64,000 nucleotides of DNA, taken from NCBI RefSeq assembly GCF_053078305.1, contig NZ_CP166879.1; one strand, given 5' to 3'. Each line of letters begins with the position of its first letter. The stretch's first letter is position 1. Below the pieces are notes generated by a model. It was not told the DNA's origin, did no database searches, and saw only the letters and a list, made by a program, of their open reading frames with translations. A program made the translations under genes and the position numbers. Of the stretch, positions 61,511 to 62,351 are shown in pieces.

Positions 61511-62092
61511 ATGGACAAGCCGACGCGTGGTCGTGTACGCAAGGTGGATTTGCTCCCCGACAGCATCCGTAAGCCGCTGCTGGAAATGCTGCGTGAAAAA
61601 CGTCTGACGCAGGTCCAGATCCGCGAGGAAATCAACCGTCTGATCCGTGAGGCGGGCCTGCCGGAAGAGCAGCAGCTTTCACCGGCGGCCATCAGCCGGG
61701 AAGCCTCCCGTAATGAGCTGATTGCCCGTAACCTGCGTGATTTACGCGAGCAGACAAAAGCCATGATGGCCGAACTGGGGGACAAGCCAACCGGTGAAAC
61801 CACAGCGCTGATTCTGGAAATGTCCCGCGCCCTGATGTACCGCCGCCTGCGTGCCGCGACCGAATCTCTGAACAGCGACAGCGACGTGGATATGCGCCTC
61901 ATCAAAGACATCCTCCTGTCAGCACAGCGTGCGGAAAGTGCCGCCGAGCGCAGCATTAAGCGTGAAAAAGAAATCCGGGCCGCATTTGCTGAAGAGATGG
62001 CAAACGCGGTCACCGACGAGCTGCGCGGCGTGGATGGCATGAGCGAGCAGATAGAATTTCGTATCAGGCAGATGCTGCTGGGTAAAGCGTAG
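61511..62092 (+). CDS. Putative terminase small subunit (Mu gp27 position)
   Basis: 193 aa, directly upstream of large terminase; positional. Confidence 0.45.
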   Translation: MDKPTRGRVRKVDLLPDSIRKPLLEMLREKRLTQVQIREEINRLIREAGLPEEQQLSPAAISREASRNELIARNLRDLREQTKAMMAELGDKPTGETTALILEMSRALMYRRLRAATESLNSDSDVDMRLIKDILLSAQRAESAAERSIKREKEIRAAFAEEMANAVTDELRGVDGMSEQIEFRIRQMLLGKA

Positions 62093-62102
62093 GAGGTGAA
62101 TC

Positions 62103-62351
62103 ATGGCAACAGATAACCGCTCACTGATGATCTGTGCCCATCAGAAGGCATTCAGTCTTGCAACACAGTTACCTCCTGAAACCATAAAAGTGTGTCGTGA
62201 GTTGACTGAACTCTGCATTGCCGGGGAAATCTCCCTGAAACAACTGCATTCGCTGCTGGCAGAGGCTGTCACTGATGAATTGAGCAGCGTGGACGTGATG
62301 ACTGAAGAGCTTGAGTCCCGAATCAGGGGCATTCTGACAGGTAAAGCATGA
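62103..62351 (+). CDS. Hypothetical protein
   Basis: 82 aa; C-terminus repeats that of the previous protein. Confidence 0.35.
   Translation: MATDNRSLMICAHQKAFSLATQLPPETIKVCRELTELCIAGEISLKQLHSLLAEAVTDELSSVDVMTEELESRIRGILTGKA

What the first reader, a model, noticed from the sequence alone, without database searches (positions are those of the whole stretch)
61511..62351. Duplicated C-terminal module in adjacent genes before the large terminase
The 193-aa putative small terminase ends ...DELRGVDGMSEQIEFRIRQMLLGKA and the next 82-aa ORF ends ...DELSSVDVMTEELESRIRGILTGKA, a partial gene duplication, perhaps a truncated paralog that modulates terminase assembly.
Basis: seen in the sequence. Interest (0 to 1): 0.3.

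Follow-up and report, generated by a model that had tools for sequence, protein, structure and literature searches.

The report
Chimeric small gene carrying terminase tail
In a Mu-like prophage, an 82-codon gene between the small and large terminase genes is a recombination-made fusion of a small head-protein-like domain and a second copy of the small terminase's C-terminal tail; it is real and conserved but rare, and its function is untested.

Summary
The last 31 residues of gp27 (the TerS small terminase, 61511-62092) and of the next ORF (ORF82, 62103-62351) are homologous: 19/31 identical, BLASTP E=4e-10, profile-profile E=9e-14.

ORF82 is not a truncated gp27 paralog made by local duplication. 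It is an in-frame chimera.
- Residues 1-~51 belong to a family of stand-alone 54-73 aa proteins encoded right after gp27 in other Mu-like phages. That family matches the N-terminal ~55 residues of MuF/SPP1-gp7-type minor head proteins, which bind the portal.
- Residues ~52-82 are the tail of a different gp27 allele, joined so that the original stop/start overlap with the large terminase (TerL) is kept.

Three relatives show the history: an unfused form (L097), a deletion remnant (L013) and the common one-copy form (L003). Only 24 of 229 matching E. coli genomes carry ORF82; Mu, D108 and SfMu do not.

ORF82 is intact in all 18 loci examined, has a strong conserved ribosome-binding site, and shows moderate purifying selection (omega ~0.47).

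Its function is inferred, not shown. It is probably a packaging accessory protein tethered to TerL through the borrowed tail. The rival is a recombination scar kept open only for translational coupling. An AlphaFold2 (AF2) docking attempt gave no support.

The parts
61511..62092 (+). gp27 homolog, the Mu-type small terminase subunit (TerS), 193 aa
   Evidence: Pfam Phage_Mu_Gp27 PF11985 E=3e-33 over residues 12-193; phrog_426 'terminase small subunit' E=9e-55. Same position as Mu gene 27.
61997..62089 (+). Copy 1 of the tail module: gp27 residues 163-193 (MANAVTDELRGVDGMSEQIEFRIRQMLLGKA)
   Evidence: BLASTP and hhalign. The ending ...IEFRIRQMLLGKA is found in all two-copy loci and in the unfused relative L097.
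62091..62099 (+). Shine-Dalgarno sequence AGGAGGTGA for ORF82. It overlaps the gp27 TAG stop and leaves a 6-nt spacer from GGAGG to the ATG.
   Evidence: Read from the sequence. GGAGGTGAAT is conserved in 8 of the 10 loci printed; L009 and L010 carry GGGGGTTAAT.
62103..62351 (+). ORF82, an 82-aa chimeric accessory gene (end coordinate includes the stop)
   Evidence: phrog_30922 E=3e-47, full length. Intact in 18/18 loci, 12 alleles, omega ~0.47 with P=0.001. Annotated as 'hypothetical protein' in RefSeq relatives.
62103..62255 (+). MuF-N-like domain of ORF82 (residues 1-51, predicted three helices)
   Evidence: hhalign against stand-alone post-gp27 ORFs E=3.7e-7 and against MuF proteins E=2e-5. 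A profile search of 1.84 billion proteins found small proteins and the N-termini of PF04233 MuF proteins. AF2 helices 3-21, 25-39, 45-60.
62256..62348 (+). Copy 2 of the tail module: ORF82 residues 52-82 (LAEAVTDELSSVDVMTEELESRIRGILTGKA)
   Evidence: It keeps gp27-family invariant residues D175, E179, E182, I185, L189, G191 and A193, but has G176V, S178T and R172S.
62348..64000 (+). 5' part of the large terminase gene (gp28/TerL homolog). ATG at 62348 or 62351, overlapping the ORF82 stop (ATGATG). The gene runs off the window.
   Evidence: phrog_2 'terminase large subunit' E=9e-43. Homologous to Mu gene 28. The AF2 model of the fusion folds this part well.
62035..62400 (.). Mosaic cassette. 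It is the only stretch that differs from the otherwise 99-100% identical one-copy prophage of E. coli E2865 (L003). It spans the last ~19 codons of gp27, ORF82 and the first ~17 codons of TerL, including a 259-bp indel.
   Evidence: Sliding-window identity and alignment. The BLAST pieces overlap on the single tail of the relative.

Best explanation
ORF82 is a genuine accessory gene of the late lysis-packaging operon of a Mu-like prophage. It was created by an in-frame recombination between two phage lineages.

Shown:
- Its first ~51 residues are a small three-helix domain. This domain belongs to a family of stand-alone 54-73 aa proteins that sit between terS and terL in other Mu-like phages.
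- That family is homologous to residues ~30-85 of MuF/Mu gp30/SPP1 gp7 minor head proteins.
- Its last ~31 residues are the C-terminal tail of a gp27 (TerS) allele from a one-copy phage. The tail arrived together with that allele's stop codon and its overlap with the TerL start codon.
- The whole cassette moves between otherwise near-identical prophages by homologous recombination.

Inferred:
- In other phages the TerS C-terminal tail is the part that binds TerL (lambda Nu1-gpA, P22 gp3-gp2). The borrowed tail would then dock the MuF-like domain onto TerL.
- ORF82 would thus be a terminase-associated accessory factor. It could act as an adaptor or modulator at the terminase-portal interface, or as a competitor of TerS for TerL.
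- The fusion also preserves ribosome delivery to the TerL start.
For: Anatomy:
- The tail homology covers only the last 33 residues.
- The N-domain is homologous to the stand-alone post-gp27 ORFs of L034, L037, L043, L046, L048, L052 and L096.
- The stand-alone family is in turn homologous to MuF proteins: hmmsearch E down to 9e-7 against 1.84 billion proteins, with the large hits being PF04233 proteins matched at residues ~27-90. hhalign of stand-alone family versus MuF gives E=4e-13, and ORF82 family versus MuF gives E=2e-5.

Origin:
- L097 has gp27 (same IEFRIRQMLLGKA tail), the same ribosome-binding site, an unfused 67-aa ORF whose first 33 residues are ~80% identical to ORF82 (27/33), a 119-nt spacer, and then TerL.
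- L013 keeps only the ribosome-binding site and the first 4 codons.
- L003 is the one-copy form.
- The window is 99-100% identical to L003 outside 62035-62400.

Evidence that the gene is real:
- It is intact in 18/18 loci, with 12 alleles.
- Omega is 0.47 overall (P=0.001), 0.49 for the N-domain (P=0.011) and 0.43 for the tail (P=0.047).
- The tail compared with genuine gp27 tails gives pN/pS 0.33, against 0.19-0.30 among genuine tails.
- The Shine-Dalgarno sequence is strong and conserved.
- There is no separate promoter or terminator, so it is co-transcribed with terS and terL.
- E. coli JE86-ST05 carries three copies and JE86-ST02 two copies of the ORF82-bearing element. This suggests the phage still transposes.

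From the literature: MuF/gp7 proteins bind the portal and are carried into procapsids (PMC6316719, PMC5576092).
Against: - No direct evidence of expression or of any protein-protein contact.
- The TerL-binding role of the Mu gp27 tail is an analogy from lambda and P22 (my own knowledge). It has not been shown for Mu.
- An AF2 model of TerL-linker-ORF82, built with a paired 27-row alignment, folded TerL well (pLDDT 70-95). The ORF82 part stayed at pLDDT 45-58, lower than ORF82 alone (66). No confident docking was predicted.
- The loop of the copied tail has lost residues that are invariant in real gp27 (G176V, S178T).
- The gene is dispensable. About 90% of related E. coli prophages, and Mu, D108 and SfMu, lack it.
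- Omega ~0.45 indicates only moderate constraint, and the test for the tail alone is marginal.
- Which part of MuF binds the portal is not known.
Confidence: 0.5

Rival explanations
1. Recombination scar with a coupling role only. The in-frame join was kept because TerL translation in this lineage depends on ribosomes that terminate at the upstream stop (the ATGA/TGATG overlap). Any open frame reading into that stop would serve. On this view the tail peptide has no function of its own, and the N-domain works, or not, exactly as the stand-alone version does.
For: - In one-copy relatives the gp27 stop overlaps the TerL start, with only a weak Shine-Dalgarno-like GGTAAAG inside the last codons.
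- The fusion reproduces that overlap exactly.
- The tail loop lost gp27-invariant residues.
- AF2 gave no docking.
- The element is rare and dispensable.
- A deletion derivative (L013) and an unfused form (L097) with its own spacer before TerL both exist.
Against: - The tail shows fewer non-synonymous changes than neutral expectation among ORF82 alleles (omega 0.43; P=0.047, or 0.059 without the last 4 codons).
- The terminal helix keeps every gp27-family invariant residue.
- L097 shows that TerL can be expressed after a 119-nt spacer, so coupling is not obligatory.
Confidence: 0.3
2. Dedicated inhibitor or decoy. ORF82 uses the TerS tail to occupy the TerS site on TerL. It would do so either to time or limit terminase holoenzyme formation, or to interfere with the terminase of competing Mu-like phages or satellites. 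Another possibility is that it masks TerL or the portal from host sensors.
For: - A small protein that carries only the tail of TerS, without its DNA-binding and oligomerisation regions, has the architecture of a competitive inhibitor.
- Small proteins that redirect packaging by binding terminase subunits are known in satellites (SaPI Ppi, PICI Rpp; my own knowledge).
- The ORF82 tail evolves faster than the adjacent gp27 tail, which is identical in protein sequence across nine of the ten two-copy loci printed (one R->K change in L009/L010).
Against: - It sits in the phage's own late operon, between terS and terL, with a strong ribosome-binding site. It would therefore inhibit its own terminase at the moment of packaging.
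- No independent promoter for expression in the lysogen was found.
- AF2 predicted no docking.
- Nothing ties it to defence or counter-defence.
Confidence: 0.12
3. One reading: an in-situ partial tandem duplication of gp27 that left a truncated paralog.
For: Two homologous C-terminal modules lie in adjacent genes on the same strand.
Against: - There is no similarity outside the last 33 residues.
- The N-terminal 50 residues belong to a different family.
- The copies differ at 72% of synonymous sites.
- Copy 2 is closer to the tail of a one-copy lineage than to copy 1.
- An unfused ancestor-like form exists.
Confidence: 0.03

Closest known systems
Phage Mu gp27 / Pfam PF11985 (Phage_Mu_Gp27, DUF3486), the small terminase subunit
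   Same: The last 31-33 residues are shared: the motif AVTDEL...D.M.E.LE.RI...L.GKA, the terminal GKA, and the stop codon overlapping the TerL start.
   Different: ORF82 lacks the N-terminal and central ~160 residues of gp27. The Pfam model does not detect it even at E<=10. Its tail loop reads S(S/G)VDVMT instead of RGxDGMS.
MuF / Mu gp30 / SPP1 gp7 minor head proteins (Pfam PF04233), portal-binding virion proteins
   Same: ORF82 residues 4-59 align with MuF residues ~32-87, sharing the motif AHxxAFtvA...iR...i..G.t.eqF.
   Different: ORF82 is only this short helical segment. It lacks the MuF core (the W...PPxGWxCRC region) and any C-terminal effector domain. It lies between terS and terL rather than after the portal gene. 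The phage's own MuF keeps its N-terminal segment, so ORF82 is a paralogous mimic and not a split gene.
Stand-alone 54-73 aa ORFs after gp27 in other Mu-like phages (e.g. P0130, P0131, P0139, P0149; partly phrog_30922), function unknown
   Same: Same position directly after gp27, and the same domain (hhalign E=3.7e-7). P0139 in L097 shares the ribosome-binding site, and its first 33 residues are ~80% identical (27/33) to ORF82.
   Different: They end after the third helix, and a spacer separates them from TerL. Only the E. coli ORF82 lineage carries the TerS tail.
Lambda gpFI, and lambda Nu1 C-terminus / gpA N-terminus pairing (functional analogies from my own knowledge)
   Same: gpFI is a small, dispensable accessory protein that promotes the meeting of terminase and prohead. 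In lambda the C-terminus of TerS is the part that holds TerL. ORF82 combines a head-protein-like domain with a TerS C-terminus.
   Different: No sequence relationship was tested or is expected. No binding data exist for Mu-like phages. This says what ORF82 might work like and makes no claim of membership.
Accessory-gene insertion hot spots ('regions of genomic plasticity', morons) in Mu-like phages (e.g. PMC4378225, listed but not read in detail)
   Same: The gp27-TerL junction carries variable small inserts in about a quarter of the loci surveyed.
   Different: Here the insert has recombined in frame with the 3' end of a core gene, producing a chimeric protein.

Membership tests
Phage_Mu_Gp27 (PF11985) small terminase | N-terminal region (profile positions 1-~60, the presumed DNA-binding part) and central helical region | tested here: not met
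   No Pfam hit for ORF82 at E<=1 or E<=10. hhalign A1 versus A2 aligns only ORF82 residues 50-82 with gp27 residues 161-193.
Phage_Mu_Gp27 (PF11985) small terminase | Conserved C-terminal tail ending in LLGKA, immediately before or overlapping the TerL start | tested here: met
   19/31 identical, E=4e-10. Seven of the ten family-invariant tail residues are kept, eight in alleles with G173. ATGA overlap with TerL.
phrog_30922 (unknown function) | Full-length match to the 82-position profile | tested here: met
   E=3e-47, residues 2-82 against profile positions 2-82.
MuF / SPP1 gp7 minor head protein (PF04233) | N-terminal helical segment (AHxxAF...R...G.t.e.F) | tested here: met
   hhalign A1 versus A5: probability 77%, E=2e-5. 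A4 versus A5: probability 98%, E=4e-13. hmmsearch hits fall at the N-termini of PF04233 proteins.
MuF / SPP1 gp7 minor head protein (PF04233) | MuF core domain (~110 aa, PF04233) and a gene position directly after the portal gene | tested here: not met
   ORF82 is 82 aa with no PF04233 hit. It lies between terS and terL. The true MuF gene follows the portal gene in the relative L002.
Stand-alone post-gp27 MuF-N-like small proteins (unnamed) | Position directly downstream of gp27, with sequence similarity over ~50 residues | tested here: met
   (E=3.7e-7); for synteny.
In-situ tandem duplication | The two copies are each other's closest relatives, and the flanking sequence is duplicated too | tested here: not met
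   Copy 1 versus copy 2: 63/95 nt. Copy 2 versus the tail of one-copy relative L001: 75/95 nt. pS between the two copies is 0.72. Nothing is duplicated beyond 91 bp.
TerL-binding peptide (as the TerS C-termini of lambda Nu1 and P22 gp3) | Physical binding of the tail to TerL | tested here: inconclusive
   AF2 of TerL-(GGGGS)6-ORF82 with a paired alignment: the ORF82 part had pLDDT 45-58, so no confident docking. Only pLDDT is returned and only a monomer model is available. A binding assay cannot be done with these tools.

The most novel reading that the evidence does not exclude
The fusion could be a natural 'Rosetta stone'. The MuF-N-like mini-proteins encoded between terS and terL would then act on the terminase, and by extension so would the N-terminal segment of MuF/gp7 head proteins, whose function has been unknown for decades. 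ORF82 would have hard-wired that contact by acquiring the TerS tail, forming a physical bridge between TerL and the portal/MuF site. This would give MuF a testable role in docking terminase to the prohead.
Probability: 0.15. Interest if true: 0.6.

Novelty: new variant of a known kind. Interest (0 to 1): 0.35.

Why it matters
As a mosaic joint it is ordinary phage evolution. Two points go beyond that.

First, it exposes an unannotated family of small MuF-N-like proteins that repeatedly occupy the terS-terL junction of Mu-like phages. The family comprises 31 clusters at 50% identity, has no Pfam family, and is marked 'unknown function' in PHROGs.

Second, one lineage has fused this domain to the TerS tail, and the fusion has been kept under purifying selection. 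Domain fusions of this type often mark proteins that act in one complex. The locus therefore offers a cheap, specific hypothesis about what the MuF N-terminus and the Mu TerS tail bind. Neither has been characterised in Mu.

If the fusion is only a scar, the finding still documents how an illegitimate in-frame join at a translationally coupled gene boundary creates a new ORF that then spreads as a cassette.

Tried and rejected
1. The idea that ORF82 is a 'mini-TerS' with a degenerate gp27 helix-turn-helix ('LPPETIK...GEISLEQL' versus 'LPDSIRK...RLTQVQI'). This was rejected: hhalign found no second alignment between A1 and A2.
2. AF2 of ORF82 alone: low confidence (pLDDT 66). A Foldseek search of the model against the viral library gave no hit below E=0.98.
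3. AF2 of TerL-linker-ORF82 with a paired alignment of 27 loci: no confident placement of ORF82.
4. Solved structures: there are none for MuF by sequence, and gp27 gave only two E=0.096 chance-level matches, at the thresholds used (0.01 and 0.1).
5. Search for a full-length gp27 carrying the ORF82-type tail (VDVMTEE) in IMG/VR: the pattern occurs only in the eight known two-copy contigs. No donor allele was found.
6. Literature searches on Mu gp27/terminase, MuF/portal structure and TerS-tail decoys found nothing that describes this ORF.
7. The idea that the small ORF is the split-off N-terminus of MuF. This was rejected: the MuF of relative L002 still has that segment.
8. Independent occurrences of a TerS-tail copy in the other junction inserts: none were seen.

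Full report
**Observation.** The region holds a 193-aa ORF (61511-62092) and an 82-aa ORF (62103-62351), here called ORF82, on the + strand. The next gene starts at 62348 or 62351 and overlaps the ORF82 stop. BLASTP aligns the last 31 residues of the two proteins without gaps: 19/31 identical, E=4e-10. The underlying DNA is 62/91 identical. A profile-profile comparison of the two families gives E=9e-14 and is restricted to the last 33 residues.

**Context.** The 193-aa protein is the Mu gp27-type small terminase, TerS (PF11985 3e-33; phrog_426 9e-55). The downstream gene is the large terminase, TerL (phrog_2 9e-43). Upstream lie Mor, lysozyme, spanins, a TraR/DksA protein, DUF2730 (the Mu gp25 type) and a gp26-like winged-helix protein. 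This is the late lysis-packaging operon of a Mu-like prophage. No promoter-like or convincing terminator-like site separates ORF82 from its neighbours. ORF82 has its own strong Shine-Dalgarno sequence, AGGAGGTGA, ending 3 nt before the ATG (6 nt from the GGAGG core).

**One or two copies in relatives.**
- Mu, D108, SfMu and related Yersinia phages have gp27 followed directly by gp28.
- Among 5,426 complete E. coli genomes, 229 match this junction. Only 24 of them contain ORF82; the rest are 259 bp shorter.
- A search of 5.8 billion protein clusters found only 9 clusters, 77-93% identical to ORF82. All named ones are from E. coli.
- In IMG/VR, 8 of the 80 gp27 loci are two-copy forms.
- The window is 99-100% identical to a one-copy prophage (E. 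coli E2865, L003) on both sides. It differs only between 62035 and 62400, which spans the last ~19 codons of gp27, ORF82 and the first ~17 codons of TerL. The two-copy state is therefore a cassette exchanged by recombination in the conserved flanks.

**What ORF82 is.** Outside its tail, ORF82 has no similarity to gp27. Inspection of other Mu-like loci that carry inserts at the gp27-TerL junction showed small ORFs directly after gp27 with N-termini resembling ORF82.
- These small ORFs align with ORF82 residues 1-50 (hhalign E=3.7e-7). Two of them hit phrog_30922.
- A profile of this N-domain, searched against 1.84 billion representative proteins, found 31 clusters. Most are 54-80 aa proteins. 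Seven are 266-519 aa proteins matched at residues ~27-90. All seven are Phage_Mu_F (PF04233) minor head proteins.
- Profile-profile comparison confirms the link: stand-alone family versus MuF E=4e-13, and ORF82 family versus MuF E=2e-5.
- MuF/SPP1 gp7 proteins bind the portal and are carried into the procapsid. Their biochemical role is otherwise unknown (PMC5576092, PMC6316719).
- The phage's own MuF keeps this segment, so ORF82 is a paralogous mimic and not a split gene.
- AF2 predicts helices 3-21, 25-39 and 45-60, a loop at 61-67, and a terminal helix at 68-79, at low confidence.

**Origin.** A contig of the same phage lineage (L097) has the following order: gp27 with the identical IEFRIRQMLLGKA tail; the same ribosome-binding site; an unfused 67-aa ORF (P0139) whose first 33 residues are ~80% identical (27/33) to ORF82; a 119-nt spacer; and a TerL with a different N-terminal tip.
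- Two-copy forms follow L097 up to about ORF codon 50. They then switch to sequence homologous to gp27 codons ~163-193, followed by the TerL start.
- L013 retains only the ribosome-binding site and the first four codons.
- ORF82's tail is nearer to the tail of one-copy lineages (75/95 nt) than to the adjacent gp27 tail (63/95 nt). About 72% of synonymous sites differ between the two copies.
- The simplest history is an illegitimate, in-frame join between an L097-like phage and a one-copy phage. This is not a local duplication.
- No full-length gp27 with the ORF82-type loop (VDVMTEE) was found.

**Is it a functional gene?** All 18 loci examined have an intact 82-codon frame, with 12 alleles.
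- Counting changes along a minimum spanning tree gives omega 0.47 overall (P=0.001), 0.49 for the N-domain (P=0.011) and 0.43 for the tail (P=0.047; 0.059 without the last four codons, which overlap the TerL initiation region).
- The tail keeps all gp27-family invariant residues of the terminal helix but has changed the loop (G176V, S178T, R172S).
- E. coli JE86-ST05 holds three copies and JE86-ST02 two copies, as expected if the carrier phage still transposes.

**How it most likely works.**
- Shown: a chimeric, conserved, co-transcribed small protein that combines a MuF-N-like domain with a TerS tail.
- Inferred from lambda (Nu1 C-terminus with gpA N-terminus) and P22 (gp3 tail with gp2), from my own knowledge: the TerS tail is the TerL-binding element. 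ORF82 would then be tethered to TerL and act as an adaptor, modulator or competitor during packaging.
- My attempt to test docking did not place ORF82 confidently. I used AF2 on TerL-(GGGGS)6-ORF82 with a 27-row paired alignment. TerL reached pLDDT 70-95, while the ORF82 part reached 45-58. That result is weak evidence against docking, or simply uninformative.
- The main rival is that the tail is a passenger. The join would have survived because it keeps a translated frame running into the TerL start, preserving translational coupling.
- I put about 0.5 on a tail-dependent accessory function, 0.3 on the scar model, about 0.1 on a dedicated inhibitor or decoy, and almost nothing on in-situ duplication.

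**Comparison with known families.** ORF82 is a member of phrog_30922. It is not a member of PF11985 because it lacks everything except the tail. It is not a member of PF04233 because it lacks the core domain. It belongs with an unnamed family of stand-alone MuF-N-like proteins and is the only lineage of that family found with a TerS tail. Functionally it may resemble lambda gpFI or the terminase-binding small proteins of satellites, but nothing here tests that.

**Verdict.** The duplication is real. The 'truncated paralog' reading is wrong, and the true structure is a recombination-made chimera at an insertion hot spot. It is a new variant of a known kind, phage mosaicism producing a fused accessory ORF. 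It is of modest interest, raised somewhat because it links two poorly understood packaging elements.

Noticed in passing
window 44000-49120: The Mu-like prophage is nested inside a lambdoid prophage. Window 44000-48940 matches lambdoid head and tail genes (portal, S49 peptidase, major capsid, gpFI, tail) at ~98% to STEC genomes, and that homology stops at 48940. The Mu-like left end starts at 48941 with TG (TGTAACCAGG...). Three direct TTTGATAC(C/T)G repeats lie at 48958, 49053 and 49105; they are probably transposase-binding sites (5 in the window against 0.25 expected). The arrangement resembles Stx phages LC727881 and LC727895, which are annotated with an inserted Mu-like phage.
   Followed up: partly
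loci L034-L071 (IMG/VR), equivalent to window 62090-62350: The gp27-TerL junction is an insertion hot spot. Of 73 loci with both genes, 7 carry ORF82 and about 13 carry other inserts of 132-619 bp. The inserts include a second recurrent small ORF family (e.g. MAVKSEEKTSADIALKLKPIVEAAL... in L053/L054, with relatives in L046, L048 and L052) and hydrophobic ~50-aa ORFs (L063, L071).
   Followed up: partly
L013:3582-3615; L097:3001-3323: L013 keeps the ORF82 ribosome-binding site and the codons MATD, then joins directly to a TerL of the L097 type (N-tip MSKRTGEEKIKPDTG...). It is a deletion remnant of the unfused arrangement.
   Followed up: yes
window 62351-62400 and the TerL N-termini of all loci: The first ~15-25 residues of TerL are hypervariable between lineages, and homology resumes at a conserved PRKIDL motif. 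This is where the right-hand mosaic boundary of the cassette falls. In the AF2 model, residues 11-30 are confidently folded (pLDDT 83-86).
   Followed up: partly
proteins P0147, P0151; loci L094, L095: Other rearrangements and locations of the MuF-N-like mini-domain:
- P0147 (80 aa) has the first 23 residues of ORF82 fused to unrelated sequence.
- P0151 lies in the early region of a Mu-like element near the transposase.
- The L094 homolog follows an ORF whose C-terminus (…IQHILALSEHYFLKE) looked to me like a Mu gpG-type virion-morphogenesis protein; this identity was not tested.

   Followed up: no
E. coli JE86-ST05 (NZ_AP022815.1) and JE86-ST02 (NZ_AP022811.1): These genomes hold three and two copies of the ORF82 N-terminal part. 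This suggests recent transposition of an ORF82-bearing Mu-like phage.
   Followed up: no
L067:3572-4186: In one IMG/VR locus the TerL reading frame appears split: a 204-aa ORF is followed by a second ORF that continues TerL. This is probably a frameshift or a sequencing error.
   Followed up: no
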